Of a DNA stretch of 23,255 nt, positions 5,490-16,496 are shown piece after piece. Source of the DNA: a bacterium (GTDB lineage Bacteria; Zhuqueibacterota; Zhuqueibacteria; Oceanimicrobiales; Oceanimicrobiaceae); NCBI GenBank assembly GCA_046757025.1, contig JBHHXN010000079.1, positions 1 to 23,255 on the forward strand, in the 5' to 3' direction. Under the pieces are notes generated by a model. The model did not search any database and was not told where the DNA came from. It saw nothing but the letters and a program-made list of their open reading frames with translations. Numbering within the stretch: the first letter of the stretch is position 1; every line of letters begins with the position of its first letter. The translations under genes were made by a program, and so were the position numbers.

Positions 5490-6554
5490 TTAAGGGAACT
5501 TTAACTCGATACCGATGCGCGGCCGAACCTGCACATCCAATTTGAACGGATCCACTTCGCGGGTGATGGTATCGCCAATATTGAAACCGGATTTGAGTTT
5601 ATTGGCAAACTCCACGCTGATGCCGCCAAAAAAGTGTACTTCCACCGGGATGCCCGTGGGCAGGCCCAATCCCAAACCCACGATGGGCTCGATGTGATCG
5701 ACCAGTCTGAGGCCGGCTAACAGATGAAACGAGCTGCCCAGCGTGGGCGCTTTCGTATCCACCGCACTGAAATGATAGTTGATGACGCCGAACGCAGCCA
5801 GATCGCCGTGCGGTTTCGGCCGTACGATGATGCGGCCATCGCGACCGATGATAAACTCCACGTCGTCGGCCGTGGTGATGGCGGTGGCCATGCCGAAGCT
5901 CCAGTGCTCTTTCGCGGTGTTATCGTAAAGCGCGGTGGCTAAAAATTCCTCAGAACCCAGCTCTTTCTTCACGATGATGGAAATATCCGCATTCTTCTGG
6001 AATTTCTCCGGGATTTCGTATTTTCGGACGTCGATCCAAACCGTGGGCGGGCCGCCCAGAGCGCCGATGGGCAGGGGGATATCCAAAAACAACGACAGGA
6101 AATCCAGTAAATTTTCTTCAAAAGGCGACGCTTTGGAGGTGAGAACGGTGGAAAGGAACGAATCGGCATTTTCTCGTTTTGAGATGAAAATATAATACAG
6201 ATCGTCGTTGGTCAGGCCGTAAAGTCGCGTGTCGAGAAAATCCGAGCCGCCATGAAACATGCCGATGGGGCTAATTTTATCGGTGAAATTAGCCACGACG
6301 ATATAATAATCATTGTCATTCATCCGGAATCCGGAAAGACCGATGAGTTTTTTCAAACTGTCAGCCGCCCAGGCCACTTCGCCTTCGTAAAACCAGCGGT
6401 AAGCTTTACCGAAAAGGTCCTCGGCGTCGTTTACGCGAAAGGGAGCACCCGAAACGCGTTTGGGCACGGAAATGATTCGATCCTGCGAAAACAAATTGAC
6501 GGCGGTGAAACAGACCAAAAGCAGCGCCGCAATTTTTATTGATGAAACTTTCAT
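5490..6554 (-). CDS. Hypothetical secreted protein, possibly outer-membrane (C-terminal amphipathic beta-strands)
   Basis: Sec signal peptide MKVSSIKIAALLLVCFTAVNLFS|Q and an AAGGAG RBS. The C-terminal part has alternating strands ending RPRIGIELKFP. No family recognised. Confidence 0.75.
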   Translation of the reverse strand: MKVSSIKIAALLLVCFTAVNLFSQDRIISVPKRVSGAPFRVNDAEDLFGKAYRWFYEGEVAWAADSLKKLIGLSGFRMNDNDYYIVVANFTDKISPIGMFHGGSDFLDTRLYGLTNDDLYYIFISKRENADSFLSTVLTSKASPFEENLLDFLSLFLDIPLPIGALGGPPTVWIDVRKYEIPEKFQKNADISIIVKKELGSEEFLATALYDNTAKEHWSFGMATAITTADDVEFIIGRDGRIIVRPKPHGDLAAFGVINYHFSAVDTKAPTLGSSFHLLAGLRLVDHIEPIVGLGLGLPTGIPVEVHFFGGISVEFANKLKSGFNIGDTITREVDPFKLDVQVRPRIGIELKFP

Positions 6555-6887: not shown

Positions 6888-8093
6888 ATGCCTGTTCAAT
6901 TCAGACACCTTTTATTTGTTTTTGTGTTGATTGCTGGCTGCAGCGAGACCCGACCTTTTTTACGAAAACCGGCACCTGACGCACCTCTCCAGATCGGCGA
7001 TCCAAATCTGCGACCAATCCATACTGAGGTATTAACATTTTATGCTTTAGGCGATTGGGGCTCGGGCGACGAAAACCAGCAGGCCGTGGCAAACGCCTTG
7101 CAAAGAAACGTGGCCGAAATTCCAGCAAACCGCAAAATTCCGCCGTTTGTGGTGGGATTGGGCGACAACGTATATGAATTCGGTTTAGCCGAAGGCTGGA
7201 ATCATCCCACCACCCGGCTCTTACTCGAAAAAACTTTCGGACAGATCTATCAGGACGTCCGATATCAAGGCCAAAAGCTGAACTTTCACGTTGTTCCGGG
7301 TAATCACGATTATAACGGCGTGGCCGGCGGCAAAAATGGCTGGGGGGACGTCATCCAGCAGGAGACTGCAGCCGAAAAATTATACTACCCAAACTGGCAG
7401 TATTATCCCATCGACCCCGCCAAAAATCGCGACTCCAACGACTCCACCGATTATTTTTTACTAAAAAAAGAAAACATATACGACCTCACGCTGCCAGAAA
7501 AAATCAATCTACCGACGGATAGTAAAATATCCGTAGTGGCGCTTGACACGCAGGTACTTCTGGAATTGTACAAAAAAAAGAACCACGATTTGCTGCAAAA
7601 ACACTGGCAGAGATTGGAATCGTTGCTGGAGGAAGACGCGGCCTGGAAAATCGTCATCGGGCACCATGCGGTTTCCTCGCACGGCCGACACGCCGGTTTT
7701 CGGGAGTGGTTCTGGTGGGTGCCGCCGATTATTCTGTACACCGTTATCGATAAACTCTTCATCAAAACTCTGCAGGATATGGACCACCCTGCTCATCAAC
7801 ATTTTGTCAACGATTTGAAGCAATTAATCAGGAAACACGATGTGACGCTGTATTTGTCCGGACATGAGCACAGTTTGGAATTCCTGCAAATCGACCCTGA
7901 CCACTTTCAAATCGTATCCGGCAGCGCCGGTAAACTCACGGAGGTTTCACATAAGAACGACACGATTTTTTCCCACGAAGCCTTCGGGTTTGTCCGATTC
8001 GATATCACAGACCATGAAATGTGGATCGAATTCTTTCAGGTAAAAAAGGATGCCAGTTTTGGTTCCACAGCCTTGTTCAGATTGACGAAATGA
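6888..8093 (+). CDS. Calcineurin-like metallophosphoesterase, purple acid phosphatase type, lipoprotein
   Basis: Lipobox IAG|C. All five PAP metal-ligand blocks are present: GDWG, GDNVY (Tyr ligand), GNHD, VIGHH, GHEH. Confidence 0.9.
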   Translation: MPVQFRHLLFVFVLIAGCSETRPFLRKPAPDAPLQIGDPNLRPIHTEVLTFYALGDWGSGDENQQAVANALQRNVAEIPANRKIPPFVVGLGDNVYEFGLAEGWNHPTTRLLLEKTFGQIYQDVRYQGQKLNFHVVPGNHDYNGVAGGKNGWGDVIQQETAAEKLYYPNWQYYPIDPAKNRDSNDSTDYFLLKKENIYDLTLPEKINLPTDSKISVVALDTQVLLELYKKKNHDLLQKHWQRLESLLEEDAAWKIVIGHHAVSSHGRHAGFREWFWWVPPIILYTVIDKLFIKTLQDMDHPAHQHFVNDLKQLIRKHDVTLYLSGHEHSLEFLQIDPDHFQIVSGSAGKLTEVSHKNDTIFSHEAFGFVRFDITDHEMWIEFFQVKKDASFGSTALFRLTK

Positions 8094-8145: not shown

Positions 8146-8174
8146 TTGACATTTATTTAACAATTTTGTATTCT
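8146..8174 (+). promoter_or_regulatory. sigma70-type promoter upstream of the ECF-CHAT cluster
   Basis: TTGACA-17 bp-TATTCT. Confidence 0.6.
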
Positions 8175-8309: not shown

Positions 8310-8954
8310 ATGGGCATAATCTTTCCGGGGTTCTTTCTGATCTGCAAACAGAATTTACGCGAGATCGCCTTTCCTGAGTTTTTGGATATTTTAGTTGATC
8401 GAAATCAACCGTGTTACCAAACAGCCTGGTACGAGTTTGAGCGTCGATATCAACAATTAATATTCCGGCAAATTCACGACCAGATGAAACGCTGGCACCG
8501 GGGCGGCGAGGTGGATCTCATGCAAGAAATTGCGGCCATGGTTCTCAACAGACTCATTGCACACGATTTCAGAGCCCTTACACTTTTTGAAAAAAGAGAA
8601 GAAGAAGGTCGGTTCAAAAAATATTTGCGCGTCATTTCAACCCGTCAGGCCATTGCGTATTTATCAAAACTCCATGAAACTGAAGATATAAATGAGAAGA
8701 CTCTGACACAACCTCAGGAAGATTTTACGCTTACGCTGGATTCCGAAACACACAAGGCCATGGTGAAGAGGATAAGAGACAGATTTGCTAACACAAATAA
8801 ATCTGATTTTTTTGTGGAAAGAGATGCGTTGATCTACACTTTGCGCACAGCGGGACTGAAATCCAAAGACCTGGGACAAATCCCTTTATTCAACATGAAA
8901 GCACACAATGTGGACGTCATCGTTGACCGCATAAAAGATAAATTTGAAAATTAA
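8310..8954 (+). CDS. Divergent ECF-type RNA polymerase sigma factor
   Basis: Region-2-like AWYEFERRYQQLIFRQI...DLMQEI...FKKYLRVISTRQAIAYL and region-4-like ERDALIYTLRTAGLKSKDLGQI...NVDVIVDRIKDKF. It is 214 aa and lies directly upstream of zinc anti-sigma genes. Start codon uncertain. Confidence 0.75.
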   Translation: MGIIFPGFFLICKQNLREIAFPEFLDILVDRNQPCYQTAWYEFERRYQQLIFRQIHDQMKRWHRGGEVDLMQEIAAMVLNRLIAHDFRALTLFEKREEEGRFKKYLRVISTRQAIAYLSKLHETEDINEKTLTQPQEDFTLTLDSETHKAMVKRIRDRFANTNKSDFFVERDALIYTLRTAGLKSKDLGQIPLFNMKAHNVDVIVDRIKDKFEN

Positions 8955-9044
8955 ATTAGCTGAGAGATTTCTGGTTTTAATGGTGTCTTGCTATATGAAA
9001 ACGTAAATGATATTTATTTTTGAACAAGGTAAGCAAAACGAAAA

Positions 9045-9440
9045 ATGGAAAACAATAACTCATCTCATTTATCCTGTGGAGAACTGATCGCTTTGGCCAT
9101 CATCGGGCAAAACATCGATGCCAGCCACCGAGTTAAACAGCATTTAACAGAATGTGACTCTTGTTCAAAAAAATATCAAATCGTTTGTAAAATCCAACAA
9201 AGTCTCCTAAAAAATTCCAACAACTGGCACCCTGCATTTTCAAACAATTGTAAACATACCGAGCCGGACTTCACTCAATCAACGCAAATTATGTTTGGTT
9301 TTTTAAACGTGAAATTAAAAAAGGCCGAGTCCTTAAAACTATTCCAGCACTTGAACGATTGTTTTAATTGTTTTCAGTTATTTGCCAGAAATTGGAGCGA
9401 CTTTTTAGCCATGAATCAATGTAAAGATAAGGACCAATGA
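9045..9440 (+). CDS. Soluble protein with two zf-HC2/ZAS-like motifs (putative anti-sigma or anti-anti-sigma)
   Basis: HLTECDSC and HLNDCFNC (HxxxCxxC), each with an upstream candidate His/Cys ligand. No clear TM helix. Confidence 0.75.
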   Translation: MENNNSSHLSCGELIALAIIGQNIDASHRVKQHLTECDSCSKKYQIVCKIQQSLLKNSNNWHPAFSNNCKHTEPDFTQSTQIMFGFLNVKLKKAESLKLFQHLNDCFNCFQLFARNWSDFLAMNQCKDKDQ

Positions 9441-9444
9441 CGCC

Positions 9445-10599
9445 ATGGAAACAGATATTAGACGTACTCAGACCCCGCATATAACCCATCAGTTAATCCA
9501 ATCAGCAATTAGCAAAGATTTCAAATCATTGGAATCGAAACCATTCAAACAACATCTGACTGAATGCGAACGCTGCAGAAGTTTTGTGGAAATCGTTAAA
9601 TATGCTCAGGAATGCTCCCGGGATGCTTATCCGGATGAACAGCCGCCGCACCTTTCCGAAGAAGAATTAGTTGAAACCGTGTATCAAATTTATGAACAAA
9701 GCCTGACTCGCAAAGAAGCGGCCAATTTTCTCAGCCATTTAAAATCGTGCCCGAGCTGTTTCGAACATTTAGAAACCGTATTTGATGAGACCTTTCGCCC
9801 AGCCACAGAGTTGGTAGAAAACGAGTTGGAGGATTATGCGGGAATTTCACTGGCAAAAATTGTGTTGACAGAAAATCCTCCGATAAGTCGAGAAAAAGAC
9901 CTGCAATTTGAAAACAACAAACTTACCATTCGGCAAAAAATTGCCGAATCAATCGATAAATGGATACCGCCTATTCGAATTCTGGCACCGGTAACGATGA
10001 TTCTCATTGCCGGCTTTTTTGTCGGAAAAGGGCCATTTATGACCTGGCGCGCCGGCTCGTACACTGCCGATGGTATGAAGCTTTTGCAAGAAAACTGGAC
10101 CATCACGGATGAGGATCTACGGCCTGCAGGTCTATTCCCGCGCAGCATGTTTTCAAGCGTTCATAGCAACGGCTCAGAAGATGAGGAAGCTGCGGTACAA
10201 TTTAAATTTGAAAAAGCCTTGAGCTGGGATGAAGAAAACGTGGAAGCAAAACACGGCCTGGCGATGTTCTGGTATTTCACAGGCCAATTAACGCCAGCCG
10301 ACAGCCTGTTAAACACTTTATTAGCGCACGATTCTCTCGATTATCAAGCCTGGAATATTTTAGGTCTGGTGGAAACAAAAAATGAAAACGAAAACAACGC
10401 TCTGCACGCATTTGAAACCGCACTAAAAATTAAACCAGATTATGCAGAAGCCGCTTACAACCGGGCATTATTATTACAACAAATGGGACTTCTTCCGGAG
10501 GCAAAGGAAGCCTGGCAGCACTACCTCACCATTGATCAGGAATCCGATTGGGCAAAAAGCGTGCGGCTACATATAGAGAACCTACAATCGGTCAACTAA
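9445..10599 (+). CDS. Membrane-spanning anti-sigma factor: 2x ZAS zinc finger - TM - TPR
   Basis: HLTECERC and HLKSCPSC, a TM segment ILAPVTMILIAGFFVG, and TPR repeats (QAWNILGLV..ALHAFETALKIKPDYAEAAYNRALLLQQMG..EAKEAWQHYLTID). Confidence 0.82.
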   Translation: METDIRRTQTPHITHQLIQSAISKDFKSLESKPFKQHLTECERCRSFVEIVKYAQECSRDAYPDEQPPHLSEEELVETVYQIYEQSLTRKEAANFLSHLKSCPSCFEHLETVFDETFRPATELVENELEDYAGISLAKIVLTENPPISREKDLQFENNKLTIRQKIAESIDKWIPPIRILAPVTMILIAGFFVGKGPFMTWRAGSYTADGMKLLQENWTITDEDLRPAGLFPRSMFSSVHSNGSEDEEAAVQFKFEKALSWDEENVEAKHGLAMFWYFTGQLTPADSLLNTLLAHDSLDYQAWNILGLVETKNENENNALHAFETALKIKPDYAEAAYNRALLLQQMGLLPEAKEAWQHYLTIDQESDWAKSVRLHIENLQSVN

Positions 10600-10804
10600 T
10601 CTATCTTTACTTCTTAAACCACAGCCTCTGGCGGGAATATAGCGAAAATCGACGGGGGAACCGTTTAACAGATTTTCTAAATTCAGTTTTTGAATCAACT
10701 ACAACTCGCATCACTATTTATTCAAACGCACCTGGTGTTTTCGTGATTAAACATACAGGTTAATTAATCATATTATATATCATTTCCAATCAGGAGGAGT
10801 CGCT

Positions 10805-12184
10805 ATGGTAAAAAATTTCAAGCTCCTGGATAAAAGGTCCCTGCTTTGGCCTGCCGAAAGACCTAACTTAGCCGTCATCAATTTCGCCATCACTTTGGGA
10901 CTGGTATGGGCGTTATTGGCGTCCATCATCACCATTTTAGGTAGGAATTTTTTGGTGCAGGATTTCATACAATTCCTGGAAAATTTTTACCCAGGGTACG
11001 GCAGACCATTAGGCGCTTTTGATTTTTTTCTCGCCGTTGTTTACGGTTTGGCGCACGGTTTTTTGTTTGGTCTGCTGGTATCCTACCTATACAATATCAT
11101 CAAAGGGCCCATTGATTGTGGAGTTGAATTGTTAAAACCGCAAAAGATTATCGAATCGCGGAATCCATGGATTTTGAGCGAAGGAAGTTCAAAAAACGGT
11201 AACGAGCCTTACACCATCGCCATTGTTGCTAACCCGGTACTGGAATCCGAGATACTTCCAGCAGACGAACCCTTAAAATGGCGAAGAGATCCTATTCTGA
11301 ATAAACCAGCTCTTTTTCAATCAAAAGTGGCCTGCATAATTGGCAGCCTTGCCAGCAATCAAATGATTCGAGAAAGGTTTCTGGATAACGACAAAATGCG
11401 AATCATCACCTATTTCAATCCGGACCTTGTACCGCAGGATAAGCTCATAAAAGATGGTAAAAACGCTCTCTGTCTGGAAAAAGATTTCGATATTATTATT
11501 GAACCGATACAAGCACAAAACGGCGAAAATCGTTTAAAGGACTTTCTTGAAAGGGAACTTGTGGATGAAACGAATACTCCGTATATGATTGATGTGGTTT
11601 TTGCAGTTACCGCTTCTGAAACACATACCCGTTCTTCTGCGCTATACACTATCGACAAAAATGACCCTCTTGGGCCTCTATACAAGTTTAGATATAAAGA
11701 AGGAAGTCCCGTGATCGAAAAACATCACGCTCCCTATCCTGATGTACCGGGATTGGTCGCCTATTCTGCCTGGGACACGCGTTTAAAAACGCCCCTGCAC
11801 GAATTCGCACACGCCATGTCCTCCACGGTCAATGGTTTGATCCACGATGAATATTATGACGACATCCCGCAACCTATCAAAGATGGTGATAGCCCATTTC
11901 CGTTAAATTTTAGAAACACCAATTTTCTCATCATCAATAAGCGGGCCGGTAAAACCACACCGGACGTTTTTGGAATTTACGCTTTTCGCGACCGGGAAAG
12001 AAAATTTTCTTCTGATCGGGCCGTTTTCAAACCATCCGATTACGAAGCCTTTGTGCCGGCGCGTTTGAATCCCAGCGTGCCCTGCACCATGGATATCTCG
12101 ACGGACCAGGATAGATTTGACCGATTTATCGAGATCTTTATGCATGACCGTTTGCAGGTAAAAAGCGAACGTGAAATCGTCTAA
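10805..12184 (+). CDS. Membrane-anchored zinc metallopeptidase (HEXXH...DEY, M64/M6-like) with an N-terminal two-helix membrane domain
   Basis: AGGAGG RBS and two hydrophobic segments flanking FLENFYPGY. Zinc motif HEFAHAMSSTVNGLIHDEYY (His codon at 11798) and a Met-turn-like PCTMD. Confidence 0.72.
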   Translation: MVKNFKLLDKRSLLWPAERPNLAVINFAITLGLVWALLASIITILGRNFLVQDFIQFLENFYPGYGRPLGAFDFFLAVVYGLAHGFLFGLLVSYLYNIIKGPIDCGVELLKPQKIIESRNPWILSEGSSKNGNEPYTIAIVANPVLESEILPADEPLKWRRDPILNKPALFQSKVACIIGSLASNQMIRERFLDNDKMRIITYFNPDLVPQDKLIKDGKNALCLEKDFDIIIEPIQAQNGENRLKDFLERELVDETNTPYMIDVVFAVTASETHTRSSALYTIDKNDPLGPLYKFRYKEGSPVIEKHHAPYPDVPGLVAYSAWDTRLKTPLHEFAHAMSSTVNGLIHDEYYDDIPQPIKDGDSPFPLNFRNTNFLIINKRAGKTTPDVFGIYAFRDRERKFSSDRAVFKPSDYEAFVPARLNPSVPCTMDISTDQDRFDRFIEIFMHDRLQVKSEREIV

Positions 12185-12201
12185 AAACAAGGAGCAATAA
12201 C

Positions 12202-13071
12202 ATGTTAAAACTCGATCCCGAATTTCGTGCTTTACTATTACAACATCATAGCTCTTTGAACTCCCAAACCCAGGACCGTCCGACTCTCACGCCTGCCATA
12301 TTGGACACCTATGAACAACGGGTGGGTCAAAAACTCACAATTCAAAGAGCGCTTGTTGGAAATTTTATTAAGTTTGATATTAATGAAAGACAAAATGAGT
12401 CACTTAAAAAAGCCCTCAATATCGTACAAGAAAATATAGAAAATATACAACGGAACAACATGCCGGATTTTCACCTGGTACACGCCAACTGGAGTGCAAG
12501 AAGACGTGCGGTTGTGTTAGCCAGGACCGAAAATACCTTCAACAAATCGTGGAAACAACCCTTTGACTTTGACAACCTTCGTCTCTGGTTTCCAAAAATT
12601 GTTTGGATAATTGCGACCATCGTTCTTTTAGGCTCCACAACCACCGGATTTTTAGGTACCGTAAATACAAAGGTGATGCCGCCAAGCGTTGTCGATAAGT
12701 TAGTTCCTCCAAATCCTGATTCAAACAATTTTCTTGATAAATCAGAAAAACAGATGCTGATGGAATGGCACAAAGGTGCCAAAACAGGTGAAAAGAATTA
12801 TCAGGCTGCTATTTTGCATATGAACGATACAGAAATTATAAATGTTGGATTTAAACTATACAATCAAGGTAGAGAATGGCTACAACTTAAATCAGACACC
12901 ACAGAAATCAAAACCCCGGCACAAGCCGACAGTGTAGTAGCTGAAGGAATGAATCGATTACACTGGGCTTGCGAAATCGGCACGGTCGTGGAACAATTCT
13001 GCGGCGACAAAGCCTTGTTGGAAGCTGTGATGCATCTGCGCGAAGAGCCTCCAATTCACACTAGAAAATAA
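12202..13071 (+). CDS. Hypothetical single-pass membrane protein whose C-terminal domain resembles the N-terminal domain of the adjacent CHAT protein
   Basis: AAGGAG RBS, a ~130-aa hydrophilic N-terminus, TM IVWIIATIVLLG, and a manual alignment to the protein region encoded at 13320-13553 (see findings). Confidence 0.75.
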   Translation: MLKLDPEFRALLLQHHSSLNSQTQDRPTLTPAILDTYEQRVGQKLTIQRALVGNFIKFDINERQNESLKKALNIVQENIENIQRNNMPDFHLVHANWSARRRAVVLARTENTFNKSWKQPFDFDNLRLWFPKIVWIIATIVLLGSTTTGFLGTVNTKVMPPSVVDKLVPPNPDSNNFLDKSEKQMLMEWHKGAKTGEKNYQAAILHMNDTEIINVGFKLYNQGREWLQLKSDTTEIKTPAQADSVVAEGMNRLHWACEIGTVVEQFCGDKALLEAVMHLREEPPIHTRK

Positions 13072-13127
13072 TTGTTTAAAAAATGTAAGTCCATTTTTAA
13101 AATAATTCCCTTTATTTTTGTATTTTG

Positions 13128-16103
13128 ATGAACAAAAAGAGCAATATTAAGAAAGGCATCATTATTTCATTGCTGACGGGCATTATTGCAATCAGCTTCG
13201 TGTCGATAGTGTGGTTTAGAATATCTGCTGCGGTAGATGTTCCACCTATAATAAAAAGCACATCACCGGATAGTTTACGAGCATTTTCGTTAAAACCAAA
13301 CATGCAAAGTTTTATCAAAGAGTGGGAAAGCTTTCAAAAAGGTGGTGAGCAGGATAGCTTGCACAATTTGATCCGAAATAACTATGTAGTGGCTCAGTCC
13401 ACAGGCCTGCTCCTGTTAGAACAAGCCACGCTTTTTCGACATCGTGGCAAGCAAGACATTGCCAACGCAAAAATAATCACGACCAGAGAAATTGCAGAGG
13501 ACCTTATCGCTGTCTTTCAGGATTCGTATTTACTCAAACAGGTCATTCACATCGAAACGCTTGACGACAAACAATTGCAACGGCGAGCCTTAGCCAGCGA
13601 GCTTTATGCCGCGGCGAGTCAAAAACTCCATGACGGTGATAGGGTCGAATCCAAAAAGCGATTTATATCGGCAAGGAACCTGGCGAGCAAAGCAAATGAT
13701 GAAAAACTTCAAGTAGAGGCTTTGAGTTTTCTACAGTGGTTCCTTGGAACCGAAAGAAACCATACAAAAGTCATTGAACTCGGTGAACAGATTATAAAAC
13801 TTGCGAGTAAATCAGGTTATAAGAGACGGTTAGCGATCGCTTTGCAGCAAAATGCCGAAGCCTTGCGGGAATTGGATCGGGATGAGCAGGCCATCGTAAC
13901 GATAGATAAAGCCATTCAGATAGCTAAACTCCTGAACGATGAATACGTATTAGCCAATTGTTATCTCATTAAGGCACAGATTTATAATCGCAGGCACGAA
14001 TACCAAAAAGCACTTAACATGCATGAAAAGGCTGCTGCCGTCAAAAGAGAGGGAATTTGGCTGGGAACCATCGATCTTTATGAAGGACAAATATTCACGC
14101 ATCTGGGAGAATATGGAAAAGCCCAAAACGCCTTTGAAAGAGCCATTGAAATTTTTAAACAACATGGACAAAGAGCGAAAACGAATTTAGCCGTTGCATT
14201 GAGTTCACTATCGGACCTTTACTTTCGCATGGGTGAATACGAGGCAGCTTTAAATTATGAGAAAATTTCTCTGGAAATCAAAACAGGAAATGAACGCAGA
14301 GCCTTATCATTGAGCCTTTTAGGTTTGAAATATTCCAAATTGGACAGTATTGATCAGGCTTTATCTGCGCATCAAGAAAGCCTCAAGTTGTGGCCAAAGT
14401 CGGGAGGCACACGCCACCCCACGGATTTTTGGCTCCGCCTGGGCGACGTGTATCTCAAAACAGGAAATTTCCCCAAAGCAAAAGATACCTTTTCCGAAGC
14501 ATTAAAATTGGCGGAACCTATCGAGTACAGGCTTGGTAAAGGCGGTGCATTGTTGGGTTTTGGACGCCTGGCAATCATTCAAAATGAAATGGACAAAGCC
14601 AAAACATATTTTGAAGATGCGCTTGCAATTTCGCAAGACATAGGAGAACCGCTTTTAAAAGCCGCTGCATTTTACGGTTTGGCAAATATTGAGAAGAAAG
14701 CGAATAATTGGCAAGCGGCTTTGACTTTTATTGATAACGCTATTTCAACAATTGAAGCACTCCGATCCACCATCCATCAAGATTCTCTGCGCGTGAGCTT
14801 TTTTGCAACCAATCAAGAGTTGTATGACGATGCCATTTTGATCTCATCTGCGCAAAACCTGGAAAATGTGGCCCTTCAATACGCTGAAAAAGCTCGCGCC
14901 CGAAGTTTATTCGACGCCATTGGACAATTCAACATAAAAGTCATGGCCCAATCTCAAAAAGATCTAGTGCAGACACCCATCCCGGCATTTGAACAAATGC
15001 AGCAAAAAATTCCCGACTCGGTTCAGATCATCGAATACCGCGTCACCGCCGATACGCTGATTATCTGGTTGCTCAGCAGAGATGACACACCAAGATTGCG
15101 CAAAGTACCCGTTTCCATTCAGCAATTAGAGCAAAAAGTGGAAAAATATTTAGTTAGCATTGGCGCCGAAGAACTTAAAGCATTTAGAAAGCGCGTAAGT
15201 AAAAATATTGCTGCGGTTTATGAAGAAAATAAAAAACTCGGAAAACAACTTTATGATTTATTAATCAAACCCATAGAGGAAGCCATCGTGCAAGACAATC
15301 GATTGATCATCTTGCCGGATGGCGTGCTCCACCGCCTGCCTTTTGGAGCGCTGGTCACAAACGAGGATTCTTTTTTTGATGAGCGTTATGTTTGGACAAA
15401 AGCCCCAAGTCTCAGCATCTTAGCTGAAACCCAAATGTGGCAGGATAAAATCGTTCAACCACAAAAGCCTAAATTTCTCATGGTCGCAGGCGATTTCCCA
15501 AGTAAGAAATCACAGATAAAAACCGTAAAATCCCTTTTCGAGCATGCTACCATCTTAGAAAACCGTTCAGCAAATTATAATAATTTGAAAAATCATCTAA
15601 AGCAAGGTTCAGAGATAGTTTATTTTTCTATTCACGCTGTGGCAGACGAAAGTCATCCCATGAACTCATTTATCGAGCTTTATGATGAGACTCATACAAG
15701 CGGCGATAATTCCTGGAAAGAAGTATATGCCCGCCAACTTCTTCAATTGGATTTTTCCCGTACCTGGCTCACGGTGTTGAATGCCTGTGAAACCAGCAGA
15801 GGGAAAATTGCAAAAGGTGAAGGGGCGCTAAATATGGTTCGGATATTTTCTATTTCCCGAGTGCCCGTGGTCGTAGCCAGTTTGTGGAAGAATGATGATT
15901 ATGCGTCGGCAAATATTATCAGTAATTTTTTCAAAAATTTGATCGCCGGGCAATCCACAACTGATGCCTGGCATCAGGCTAAAATACTCAGCATCCAACA
16001 ATTATTAAAAACTTCCGGTTATGCGCTGCCCTATTTCTGGGCCGCACTGGAAATCTATCAAAATAGCTGGTTTAATCCAGAATCCTTTATTACAAAGAAA
16101 TAA
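13128..16103 (+). CDS. TPR-CHAT caspase-like cysteine protease with N-terminal signal anchor
   Basis: Basic N-terminus plus hydrophobic helix, a long TPR array, then AEKARARSL, LYDLLIKPI, LPDGVLHRLPFGAL, YFSIHA (His codon 15633), VLNACET (Cys codon 15786), VVASLW and PYFWAA. Confidence 0.93.
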   Translation: MNKKSNIKKGIIISLLTGIIAISFVSIVWFRISAAVDVPPIIKSTSPDSLRAFSLKPNMQSFIKEWESFQKGGEQDSLHNLIRNNYVVAQSTGLLLLEQATLFRHRGKQDIANAKIITTREIAEDLIAVFQDSYLLKQVIHIETLDDKQLQRRALASELYAAASQKLHDGDRVESKKRFISARNLASKANDEKLQVEALSFLQWFLGTERNHTKVIELGEQIIKLASKSGYKRRLAIALQQNAEALRELDRDEQAIVTIDKAIQIAKLLNDEYVLANCYLIKAQIYNRRHEYQKALNMHEKAAAVKREGIWLGTIDLYEGQIFTHLGEYGKAQNAFERAIEIFKQHGQRAKTNLAVALSSLSDLYFRMGEYEAALNYEKISLEIKTGNERRALSLSLLGLKYSKLDSIDQALSAHQESLKLWPKSGGTRHPTDFWLRLGDVYLKTGNFPKAKDTFSEALKLAEPIEYRLGKGGALLGFGRLAIIQNEMDKAKTYFEDALAISQDIGEPLLKAAAFYGLANIEKKANNWQAALTFIDNAISTIEALRSTIHQDSLRVSFFATNQELYDDAILISSAQNLENVALQYAEKARARSLFDAIGQFNIKVMAQSQKDLVQTPIPAFEQMQQKIPDSVQIIEYRVTADTLIIWLLSRDDTPRLRKVPVSIQQLEQKVEKYLVSIGAEELKAFRKRVSKNIAAVYEENKKLGKQLYDLLIKPIEEAIVQDNRLIILPDGVLHRLPFGALVTNEDSFFDERYVWTKAPSLSILAETQMWQDKIVQPQKPKFLMVAGDFPSKKSQIKTVKSLFEHATILENRSANYNNLKNHLKQGSEIVYFSIHAVADESHPMNSFIELYDETHTSGDNSWKEVYARQLLQLDFSRTWLTVLNACETSRGKIAKGEGALNMVRIFSISRVPVVVASLWKNDDYASANIISNFFKNLIAGQSTTDAWHQAKILSIQQLLKTSGYALPYFWAALEIYQNSWFNPESFITKK

Positions 16104-16118
16104 AAACAGGAGGCAAAC

Positions 16119-16496
16119 ATGAACAATAGCGGTTTTGACCCCGTACCGACTCCCGAATCAGCCGAAACTCTTCCCCCACCAACCATCGAAGAACAACGGC
16201 AACTGTTTTTTCCCATAAAACCCTTTCGATTTTTTCCGATCGATTATGGTCTTGCACTGGGAATTGGGGCTGCGGTTTTTCTGCTTCTCTATATTTTTGT
16301 GGCTTCTATAAGCGGAACCTCAAGTAATCTGGTTTTCTTTGAAAACATTTTTCCAGGTTTTCATCTATCTTCCGCTTCAGGATTTTTAAGTGTCCTGACT
16401 CAATCCTTAATCGGATTAATATGGAGTTTCGCCTCAGGATTCGTACTCGGATTTCTGTTCGGGTTTGTTTACAACTGGCGCATGAACACAAAATAA
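16119..16496 (+). CDS. Small membrane protein (two hydrophobic helices flanking FFENIFPGF, ending YN), paralogous to the N-terminal domain of the 10805 gene
   Basis: AGGAGG RBS and a gap-free alignment with the 10805 N-terminus. Resemblance to DUF5676-like / holin-annotated small membrane proteins is from memory, not from a search. Confidence 0.78.
   Translation: MNNSGFDPVPTPESAETLPPPTIEEQRQLFFPIKPFRFFPIDYGLALGIGAAVFLLLYIFVASISGTSSNLVFFENIFPGFHLSSASGFLSVLTQSLIGLIWSFASGFVLGFLFGFVYNWRMNTK

What the first reader, a model, noticed from the sequence alone, without database searches (positions are those of the whole stretch)
12763..13553. Gene 5 carries a protease-less copy of the CHAT protein's N-terminal domain (possible decoy, inhibitor or co-receptor)
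SEEN by manual alignment, two gap-free blocks. Block 1: EWHKGAKTGEKNYQAAILHMNDTEIINVGFKLYNQG (gene 5, from 12763) vs EWESFQKGGEQDSLHNLIRNNYVVAQSTGLLLLEQA (CHAT, from 13320), 9/36 identical. Block 2: NRLHWACEIGTVVEQFCGDKALLEAVMHL vs AKIITTREIAEDLIAVFQDSYLLKQVIHI, 7/29 identical. Both domains follow a TM helix and a V(x)PP...PDS linker. Gene 5 ends shortly after this domain but has a ~130-aa cytoplasmic head that the CHAT protein lacks. INFERENCE: homotypic pairing through the shared domain could let gene 5 relay CHAT activation across the membrane, act as its substrate, or inhibit it like a caspase decoy (c-FLIP/CARD-only analogy).
Basis: partly seen in the sequence, partly recalled or inferred. 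Interest (0 to 1): 0.72.

Follow-up and report, generated by a model that had tools for sequence, protein, structure and literature searches.

The report
Membrane partner copying its protease's cap
Gene 5 ends in a genuine, long-kept copy of the front domain of the caspase-like protease encoded next to it, and in one relative gene 5's front part is fused to the whole protease, so gene 5 is likely the protease's membrane-spanning partner, with the copy as an optional docking piece rather than an inhibitor.

Summary
The copy is real. The single pair is not significant (BLAST E 0.73), but the family profiles align at 98% probability over about 110 columns, and the predicted helices match in register. 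The 'V(x)PP...PDS' linker is not a shared motif.

Gene 5 sits in a conserved cassette: ECF-like sigma, zinc anti-sigma, TM-TPR, zincin, gene 5, TM-TPR-CHAT and a 2TM protein. Its constant part is the ~125-aa head; only 7 of 43 gene-5-slot proteins carry the copy. The copies form one clade, are under purifying selection (dN/dS 0.26 in one pair), are no closer to their own CHAT than to others, and were probably lost at least once. In one genome the head is fused through one TM helix to the full protease.

Best reading (0.45): gene 5 is the protease's transmembrane partner and the copy is an accessory periplasmic docking piece. Rivals: in-trans substrate 0.2, passive cap 0.2, CARD-only-like decoy 0.15. 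Binding is untested.

Closest known system: DdvA/DdvS. The scan noted split sigma/anti-sigma/CHAT cassettes on other DNA; none of the notes I saw mentions this copy.

The parts
8146..8174 (+). sigma-70-type promoter-like site upstream of the cassette (TTGACA-17-TATTCT)
   Evidence: 10 of 12 matches, but the region holds no more sites than shuffles (23 vs 17.8 +- 4.2); a similar TTGACA...CAATTTTGTAT stretch lies upstream of the sigma gene in L015, L017 and L110 (read by eye)
8310..8954 (+). gene 1: divergent ECF-like sigma factor, 214 aa
   Evidence: a profile of 13 orthologues hits sigma-E (1or7, E 9.9e-5); Sigma70_r2 in 3 of 13 members; TIGR02937 E 0.027
9045..9440 (+). gene 2: small soluble zinc-binding anti-sigma-like protein, 131 aa; paralogue of the N-terminus of gene 3
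   Evidence: TIGR03988 E 9.6e-9, below cut-off; hhalign with gene 3 Prob 96.4
9445..10599 (+). gene 3: two zinc motifs, TM helix (about 173-197), TPR domain; membrane anti-sigma-like, 384 aa
   Evidence: zf-HC2 and TPR Pfam hits; hydropathy
10805..12184 (+). gene 4: 2TM hairpin plus zincin-type metalloprotease domain (HEFAH at 11798-11812), 459 aa; likely cytoplasmic
   Evidence: H332, E333 and H336 invariant in 10 of 10; no Pfam family for the catalytic part, no PDB sequence hit; glycosylation sequon depleted 0.59x
12202..12576 (+). gene 5 head (residues 1-125): helical, conserved in the whole gene-5 family, likely cytoplasmic
   Evidence: 42 of 43 gene-5-slot proteins join by iterative HMM; model helices H6-22, 31-52, 62-86, 90-118; matches in 39 of 167 phylum genomes
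12577..12663 (+). gene 5 TM helix (about 126-154)
   Evidence: hydropathy; homologous to the C-terminal TM of head+TM forms such as L044 (by eye)
12688..13050 (+). gene 5 residues 163-283: copy of the CHAT protein's five-helix N-terminal cap, with a 14-aa insertion; gene ends at 13071
13128..16103 (+). gene 6: signal-anchor TM, five-helix cap, TPR superhelix, CHAT protease (H836 at 15633, C887 at 15786), 991 aa; likely periplasmic
   Evidence: PF12770 E 3.6e-41; His and Cys present in 36 of 36 relatives; model matches separase, Csx29 and DdvA
13245..13562 (+). CHAT N-terminal cap (residues 40-145), the source of the copy
16119..16496 (+). gene 7: Pro/Gly-rich N-terminal peptide plus 2TM hairpin; paralogue of the N-terminus of gene 4
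   Evidence: hhalign with gene 4 Prob 98.8; DUF5676 E 2.5e-4 and holin_4 E 5.2e-7, both below cut-off; peptide repeats in L016, L043, L046 and L106

Best explanation
Gene 5 carries a real copy of the CHAT protein's N-terminal helical cap after its transmembrane helix, and it likely acts as the protease's transmembrane partner subunit, with the copy likely serving as an optional periplasmic docking piece that would hold gene 5's cytoplasmic head in the protease complex. SHOWN: the head is the constant part of the family. The copy arose once and has been kept under selection. Elsewhere the head is fused through one TM helix to the whole protease. INFERRED: the cap and the copy lie in the periplasm, while the head and the zincin lie in the cytoplasm. 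The copy binds either the CHAT cap itself or the cap's normal partner (gene 3's TPR domain or a second CHAT chain). The head then passes the protease's state to the cytoplasmic zincin or to the zinc anti-sigma/sigma pair. Which cytoplasmic partner the head touches is unknown; the zincin is the first guess, because the fusion locus keeps zincin, head-CHAT and gene 7 with no sigma or gene 3 found in the 15 kb fetched.
For: Homology. Architectures of 43 gene-5-slot proteins: 13 head only, 9 ending at the TM, 11 with a 17-33 aa tail, 3 with an unrelated ~160-aa domain, 7 with the copy. Fusion in L115 (G011): 1297 aa, ribosome-binding site before the head's Met, head HMM 21.3 bits with 0 of 1000 shuffles as high, one TM at 282-313, CHAT part 29-32% identical to free CHATs from residue ~320, dyad intact; found again independently at E 4.3e-6 in a 1332-aa frame. 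No sigma or gene 2 hit in L115; the one gene-3 HMM hit is a multi-TM ORF on the other strand, downstream. One origin: 8 copies form one clade, 99/96. Selection: dN/dS 0.26 for the copy against 0.15-0.22 for the other domains of the cassette, in the L015/L016 pair. Topology: the D(S/T)(A/I/L/V/M/T) sequon, glycosylated in extracytoplasmic proteins of Bacteroidota (PMC10897501, passages), is enriched 5.1x in CHAT caps, 3.2x in CHAT TPRs, 4.6x in gene-3 TPRs and 5.1x in other gene-5 tails, but is 0.47-0.60x in gene-3 N-termini, zincins and sigmas. Precedent: DdvA dimers are stitched partly through the membrane-proximal stem (PMC11506125, section 7).
Against: No experiment or model shows a contact. 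The copy is absent from 36 of 43 proteins, and 13 have no TM helix, so docking in the periplasm is not needed in most loci. The fusion is 1 of 46 matches, lies in a distant subfamily, and rests on one assembly. The cap also occurs in a sigma-gene 3-CHAT locus without genes 4, 5 and 7 (L045), so gene 5 is not its original partner. The sequon test is weak: genome-wide only 1.13x vs 1.01x, and 1.73x vs 0.82x among TPR proteins; it is uninformative for the copy itself (3 vs 1.4) and 1.9x enriched in heads. The positive-inside count was not decisive. One head (L118) has two ASH/Ig domains inserted, a type I recall mostly from exported proteins.
Confidence: 0.45

Rival explanations
1. In-trans substrate, as proposed for DdvA. 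Cap-to-cap pairing would bring gene 5's periplasmic linker to the CHAT active site; the cut would remove the copy and let an intramembrane protease free the head.
For: In DdvA the active site faces the partner's TM-proximal linker, and truncated DdvA is an RseP substrate (PMC11506125, passages). The dyad is intact in 36 of 36 CHATs. A conserved (L/F/N/A)xPP stretch follows the TM in 7 of 8 copies. A separate gene 2 is present in 9 of 9 assessable loci whose gene 5 has a folded periplasmic domain of either kind, and in 0 of 27 loci with a short gene 5.
Against: Head-only and head+TM forms (22 of 43) offer no periplasmic site to cut. The gene-2 link has a counter-example: L121 has gene 2 and a short gene 5, making 1 of 30. 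These loci are kin and represent about two lineages. Gene 3 is the more obvious site-1 substrate. DdvA self-cleavage is itself only proposed.
Confidence: 0.2
2. Passive cap. The copy is a stable folded remnant of a duplication or of a fusion that later split. It shields gene 5's TM helix or stabilises the protein, without specific binding; any folded domain would do.
For: Three loci carry an unrelated ~160-aa domain in the same place. The copy evolves faster than the CHAT cap (30% vs 38% mean identity) and has the highest dN/dS in the cassette. It has lost CHAT-conserved W81, Y86, Q90, E98, S133 and F134. Copy-less loci nest among copy-bearing ones (p-AU 0.03).
Against: The copy has conserved residues of its own (R252 8 of 8, W226 7 of 8, K218 7 of 8, E182 7 of 8, W255 6 of 8) and was kept in every copy-bearing lineage across two families. 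These residues could also be repair of an exposed core.
Confidence: 0.2
3. Decoy inhibitor, like CARD-only proteins. The copy would compete with the CHAT cap for a dimer partner or for gene 3 and so raise the threshold for activation.
For: Same mode of origin as CARD16/17/18: duplication of the N-terminal domain of an adjacent caspase-family gene, patchy retention, inhibition by competition (PMC11630849, passages). The copy stops exactly before the first regular TPR helix. The cassette holds two more such pairs.
Against: Copies are no closer to their own CHAT (20%) than to others (20%), whereas CARD16/17 track CASP1 by gene conversion and EADs are closer to lineage-specific paralogues (PMC11630849, PMC7159879, passages). 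The copy is fused to a head that exists without it. The fold is TPR-like helical (best Z 7.5, not decisive). Nothing shows that the cap is a recruitment domain.
Confidence: 0.15

Closest known systems
DdvA/DdvS of Myxococcus xanthus (PMC11506125; PDB 8rot, 8rw5)
   Same: ECF sigma, zinc-binding anti-sigma domain, TM helix and periplasmic TPR-CHAT with a His-Cys dyad; the CHAT model matches 8rot at E 6.6e-13, TM 0.46/0.50. The L115 fusion has the same layout: cytoplasmic domain, TM, scaffold, TPR-CHAT.
   Different: Here anti-sigma and protease are separate genes. There is a zincin, a second zinc protein, a 2TM peptide protein and gene 5. The cytoplasmic domain joined to CHAT is the gene-5 head, not a zinc anti-sigma domain. 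Whether the cap equals DdvA's stem was not shown (rmsd 23.8 over the whole chain; 8rot is not among the 50 rows shown). No CRISPR or CBASS genes were recognised in the window.
Craspase Csx29/Csx30/CASP-sigma (type III-E CRISPR; PMC10028731, search listing only)
   Same: TPR-CHAT fold (Z 30.9, rmsd 8.0, 587 aligned to 7y9x_B), with a neighbouring gene as candidate substrate and a sigma factor as output.
   Different: Csx29 is soluble and RNA-activated through Cas7-11, and its match starts at model residue ~305, so it lacks the cap. That Csx30 is not a copy of Csx29 is recalled, not tested.
CARD-only proteins CARD16/17/18 (PMC11630849); c-FLIP (recalled)
   Same: Protease-less duplicate of the N-terminal domain of a neighbouring caspase-family gene, restricted to some lineages and lost in some.
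   Different: No evidence of a death fold; membrane-anchored and fused to a separate head; no tracking of the cognate protease's sequence; inhibition untested.
Effector-associated domains (EADs) of bacterial conflict systems (PMC7159879)
   Same: The same domain on two neighbouring genes, proposed to couple them by homotypic contact. This cassette has three such pairs.
   Different: The domain is likely periplasmic, is not closer to its in-locus paralogue, and in 167 genomes was found only on CHAT-type frames and gene 5.

Membership tests
CHAT (caspase HetF-associated with TPR) protease, gene 6 | CHAT domain after TPR repeats, with a His-Cys dyad | tested here: met
   PF12770 E 3.6e-41; H836 and C887, present in 36 of 36 relatives
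DdvA-type anti-sigma | zinc anti-sigma domain, TM helix and TPR-CHAT in one chain | tested here: not met
   gene 6 has about 7 residues before its TM; the zinc motifs are on genes 2 and 3
DdvA-type anti-sigma | encoded with a cognate ECF sigma | tested here: met
   gene 1 profile hits sigma-E and sigma-H structures; binding not tested
DdvA-type anti-sigma | dimer through the periplasmic scaffold, active site facing the partner's linker | not tested
   no homodimer model was run; the structure searches do not place the cap on DdvA's stem
CARD-only / c-FLIP decoy (gene 5) | protease-less paralogue of the N-terminal domain of an adjacent caspase-family protease | tested here: met
CARD-only / c-FLIP decoy (gene 5) | death-fold domain | tested here: inconclusive
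   no Pfam hit; best structural rows are TPR proteins at Z 7.5 and 7.1, and no death-fold entry is among the 50 rows shown
CARD-only / c-FLIP decoy (gene 5) | binds the protease's recruitment domain and inhibits activation | not testable with these tools
   needs binding and protease assays
Effector-associated domain pair | same domain on two genes of one locus | tested here: met
   7 of 43 loci
Effector-associated domain pair | in-locus copies closer to each other than to copies elsewhere | tested here: not met
   identity to own CHAT 20%, to other CHATs 20%; copies form their own clade
Type III-E Craspase module | Cas7-11 and Csx30 encoded with the protease | tested here: inconclusive
   no PADLOC match for cassette genes 1-5 and 7, only a generic TPR hit for gene 6; the other window genes were not scanned against PADLOC
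Peptidase M64-like zincin (gene 4; label recalled) | HExxH followed by a G-L-x-D-E-Y-type motif and a family-profile match | tested here: inconclusive
   HEFAH...GLIxDEY is conserved, but there is no M64 Pfam hit in 10 members at E<=1

The most novel reading that the evidence does not exclude
A modular bacterial transmembrane protease switch in which each protease or regulator is paired with a truncated paralogue of its own non-catalytic domain: CHAT cap with gene 5, zincin 2TM hairpin with gene 7, zinc anti-sigma domain with gene 2. Gene 5 would be a protease-dead protomer that pairs with the periplasmic caspase-like enzyme through the copied cap, is cut or held by it, and hands the signal to a cytoplasmic zincin. 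That would be a bacterial, membrane-spanning counterpart of caspase-8/c-FLIP pairing, and the free, copy-bearing and fully fused forms would make it testable.
Probability: 0.25. Interest if true: 0.8.

Novelty: new variant of a known kind. Interest (0 to 1): 0.55.

Why it matters
How periplasmic TPR-CHAT proteases are triggered and what they cut is open even for DdvA, where cleavage in trans is only proposed (PMC11506125). This family offers a natural series of one partner protein: head alone, head+TM, head+TM+copied cap, and head fused to the whole enzyme. That lets pairing, substrate and decoy models be separated with simple truncations. It also defines an unannotated protein family (the gene-5 head, matched in 39 of 167 genomes of the phylum) and an unannotated membrane zincin. 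Three paralogue pairs in one seven-gene cassette point to a repeated route for making regulators by partial duplication.

Tried and rejected
Complex prediction of CHAT 40-400 with gene 5 160-285 gave 'no answer', which is no evidence either way.

Searches for distant relatives found little. Single-sequence search found only gene 5 itself. A head-profile search of 267-2000 aa proteins found 4 proteins of about 290 aa and missed the fusion. A metagenome scan with gene 5 found nothing. The ESM Atlas gave no usable hit for gene 5, and the Atlas search for gene 4 did not complete. The search of 1.84 billion representatives was still queued at the end, so the range outside this phylum is unknown.

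Structure searches of the gene-5 model gave nothing clear: no Foldseek match at E<=0.001, VIA best Z 7.5, no PDB sequence hit. The head is not a sigma fragment, and the copy is not a generic TPR match.

Rejected: chance similarity; recent locus-by-locus duplication or gene conversion; neutral decay (one pair only); the 'PDS' linker as a homology marker; a strict link between gene 2 and a long gene 5 (counter-example). The positive-inside count was uninformative. No cassette-specific ECF promoter was seen by eye upstream of genes 4, 5 or 6.

Literature: searches found no description of this cassette or of a protease-less copy of a CHAT N-terminal domain. The library lacks most subscription journals. 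I did not read supplements (for example table S7 of PMC11506125 or the source data of PMC7159879), which might list such loci.
Full report
OBSERVATION. Gene 5 (12202-13071, 289 aa) and the TM-TPR-CHAT gene (13128-16103, 991 aa) hold the two blocks exactly as described, 9/36 and 7/29 identical. The pair alone is not convincing: BLASTP E 0.73; 440 of 1000 shuffles as good at full length, 123 of 5000 after trimming. Relatives settle it. Gene 5 has matches in 6 of 23 genomes of the order. Six further loci carry the same gene order, some cut by contig ends. Their gene-5 proteins hit the window's CHAT N-terminus directly, down to E 2.5e-8. Profile against profile gives Prob 98.4, E 6.4e-15, 110 columns. 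The match is specific: it is the only hit on the whole CHAT profile, with none on gene 3's TPRs. An HMM made only from 17 CHAT N-domains of copy-less loci finds all 7 copies above every shuffle. The two AlphaFold models show the same five helices in register, ending just before the first regular TPR helix. Shared invariant or near-invariant positions include L178/L55, W189/W66, G216/G93, Q222/Q99, D269/D132 and L272/L135. In CHAT, DS(L/V/I) fits the Bacteroidota O-glycosylation sequon (PMC10897501, passages read).

THE CASSETTE. From 8310 to 16496 on the + strand lie a divergent ECF-like sigma, a small zinc protein (gene 2), a zinc-TM-TPR protein (gene 3), a 2TM zincin with HEFAH (gene 4), gene 5, the CHAT protein and a 2TM protein with a Pro/Gly-rich N-terminus (gene 7). 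The dyad H836/C887 is present in 36 of 36 CHATs aligned. There are three paralogue pairs: gene 5 with CHAT, gene 7 with gene 4's 2TM hairpin (Prob 98.8), and gene 2 with gene 3's zinc region (Prob 96.4). Sources label some relatives as candidate division KSB1 and one as Calditrichota; I did not determine the window's own phylum directly.

TOPOLOGY (inferred). The glycosylation sequon is enriched 3-5x in the CHAT cap, the CHAT TPRs, the gene-3 TPRs and other gene-5 tails, and is below chance in zincins, gene-3 N-termini and sigmas. This fits a periplasmic protease and a cytoplasmic zincin and head. The marker is only modestly valid in this genome: 1.13x vs 1.01x overall and 1.73x vs 0.82x among TPR proteins. 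It says nothing for the copy itself (3 vs 1.4), is 1.9x in heads, is 0.75x in the CHAT catalytic domain, and the sequences are related.

WHAT GENE 5 IS. I collected 43 proteins from the slot between zincin and CHAT, from genome searches and a metagenome scan. L049, L053, L060, L065, L069, L071, L105 and L115 were left out of this count because they were cut by a contig end, hidden by the ORF filter, broken, redundant or without a separate ORF. 42 of the 43 join one family through the head. Architectures: 13 head only, 9 ending at the TM, 11 with a 17-33 aa tail, 3 with an unrelated ~160-aa domain, 7 with the CHAT copy. Six more loci fetched later gave no further copy. So the head is the core and the periplasmic part is variable. 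In 167 genomes, the CHAT-cap profile matched 36 places; the six in short, complete frames are all gene-5 copies, and the rest are CHAT-length or cut frames.

HISTORY. The 8 copies (7 loci plus P0008) form one clade, 99/96. Mean identity is 30% among copies, 38% among the cognate caps, and 20% between a copy and its own or any other CHAT. One old duplication fits; repeated duplication or gene conversion does not. Copy-less loci nest among copy-bearing ones in the zincin tree and in the CHAT tree, where monophyly of the copy-bearing loci is rejected at p-AU 0.03 (quick tree; L017 is only 29% filled). The copy was therefore probably lost at least once. In the one pair close enough to test, dN/dS is 0.26, against 0.15-0.22 for the other domains. 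The copy has dropped several cap residues (W81, Y86, Q90, E98, S133, F134) and fixed its own (E182, K218, W226, R252, W255).

A FUSION. In L115 (G011, 99% complete) one 1297-aa frame between the zincin and gene 7 begins with a gene-5 head, has one TM at 282-313 and continues as TPR-CHAT with the dyad intact. The head scores 21.3 bits against a best shuffle of 7.1 in 1000, and carries the family's LWIARR motif. An independent genome search finds it at E 4.3e-6, as 1 of 46 matches in 39 genomes. No sigma or gene 2 was found in the 15 kb fetched, and no gene 3 upstream. The head plus TM has thus been joined to the CHAT N-terminus twice, in different subfamilies: once to the whole enzyme and once to the cap alone. 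Conversely, L045 has sigma, gene 3 and a capped CHAT without genes 4, 5 and 7.

MECHANISM. The most economical reading is that gene 5 supplies the cytoplasmic domain that the protease lacks, either free, tethered by the copied cap, or fused. The copy would dock on the CHAT cap or on the cap's usual partner (0.45). In DdvA, the one characterised membrane TPR-CHAT, dimer contacts include the membrane-proximal stem, and the active site faces the partner's linker (PMC11506125, section 7 and passages). That makes an in-trans substrate role the next option (0.2). A separate gene 2 accompanies 9 of 9 assessable long gene-5 forms and 0 of 27 short ones, with one later exception (L121); these are few lineages. 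A passive cap (0.2) fits the unrelated domain found in the same place in three loci. A decoy (0.15) fits the CARD-only mode of origin but not the lack of tracking of the cognate sequence (PMC11630849, PMC7159879, passages). All steps after homology, distribution, selection and fusion are inferred.

KNOWN SYSTEMS AND NOVELTY. The CHAT model matches separase, Csx29 and DdvA. The cassette works like a split DdvA/DdvS but is not a DdvA, since the anti-sigma domain is not on the protease chain. Five literature searches found no account of this cassette or of a protease-less CHAT cap. Papers seen: PMC11506125 (abstract, outline, passages, section 7); PMC10897501, PMC11630849 and PMC7159879 (passages); PMC10028731, PMC6061681 and PMC8195603 (search listings only); no supplements. 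Earlier notes of this scan describe split sigma/anti-sigma/CHAT cassettes in other genomes and gave me the DdvA lead; look-ups by sequence, words and place found no note on this locus type. Verdict: observation confirmed, interpretation partly supported, a new variant of a known kind, interest 0.55.

Noticed in passing
L115:7750-11643 (G011:C30): Natural fusion of gene-5 head, one TM helix and a full TPR-CHAT (1297 aa), flanked by the zincin and gene 7, with no sigma found nearby.
   Followed up: yes
window 16119-16496 and 10805-11110: Gene 7 is a paralogue of gene 4's 2TM hairpin (weak DUF5676 and holin_4 hits). Its N-terminus is a Gly/Pro-rich peptide, tandemly repeated in L016, L043, L046 and L106; it may be the zincin's substrate or a processed signal.
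   Followed up: partly
window 9045-9440: Gene 2 is a free copy of gene 3's zinc region. It is present with nearly all long gene-5 forms and with 1 of 30 short ones.
   Followed up: partly
L043:12750-13649, L044:12314-13150, L050:1593-2375, L052:126-1055, L054:4565-5350, L055:5522-6316: The sigma factors of these gene-2-less loci have one or two predicted N-terminal TM helices, several after a shared KPTxxxKWG start: possibly membrane-anchored sigmas.
   Followed up: no
L114:4357-4782, L117:10222-10620, L056:5207-6674: A 132-141 aa partial copy of the sigma N-terminal half lies between sigma and gene 3 in two loci, and L056 has two full sigma genes: a fourth kind of partial duplicate in this cassette family.
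   Followed up: no
L063:4306-5289, L068:4318-5313, L110:8265-9251: Gene 5 ends in an unrelated ~160-aa domain, beta-rich by eye, with no Pfam or NCBIfam hit and no paralogue in its own locus.
   Followed up: partly
L118:3430-4770: Two ASH/Cep192-type Ig domains are inserted in the variable loop of the gene-5 head. In this locus the CHAT gene and the zincin gene each appear as two frames.
   Followed up: partly
L043:6347-9332: The CHAT gene of G154:C24 is in two overlapping frames (frameshift or assembly error); its gene 5 is head-only.
   Followed up: no
window 10100-10170 (gene 3, residues about 219-242): A conserved periplasmic loop, W-x-I-T-D-x-D-L-R-P-x-G-x-F-P-x-S-x-F-S, with an invariant Arg (R226, 13 of 13), is a candidate CHAT cleavage or ligand site.
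   Followed up: no
window 5490-6554 (-) and 6888-8093 (+): An unannotated 354-aa exported-looking protein and a metallophosphoesterase flank the cassette in the same order in L015 and L016; the former is 72-74% identical there, more than any cassette gene.
   Followed up: no
L008:8224-10288, L010:5697-10605, L011:347-5642 (own genome): The genome holds other sigma / zinc-TM / CHAT-type loci without genes 4, 5 and 7; tblastn finds CHAT-like frames on at least six other contigs.
   Followed up: partly
L052:4661-6618, L055:9444-11739, L054:7885-9351: Extra genes are inserted inside the cassette (between gene 5 and CHAT, or between gene 4 and gene 5), including a Cys-rich TM protein shared by L052 and L055.
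   Followed up: no
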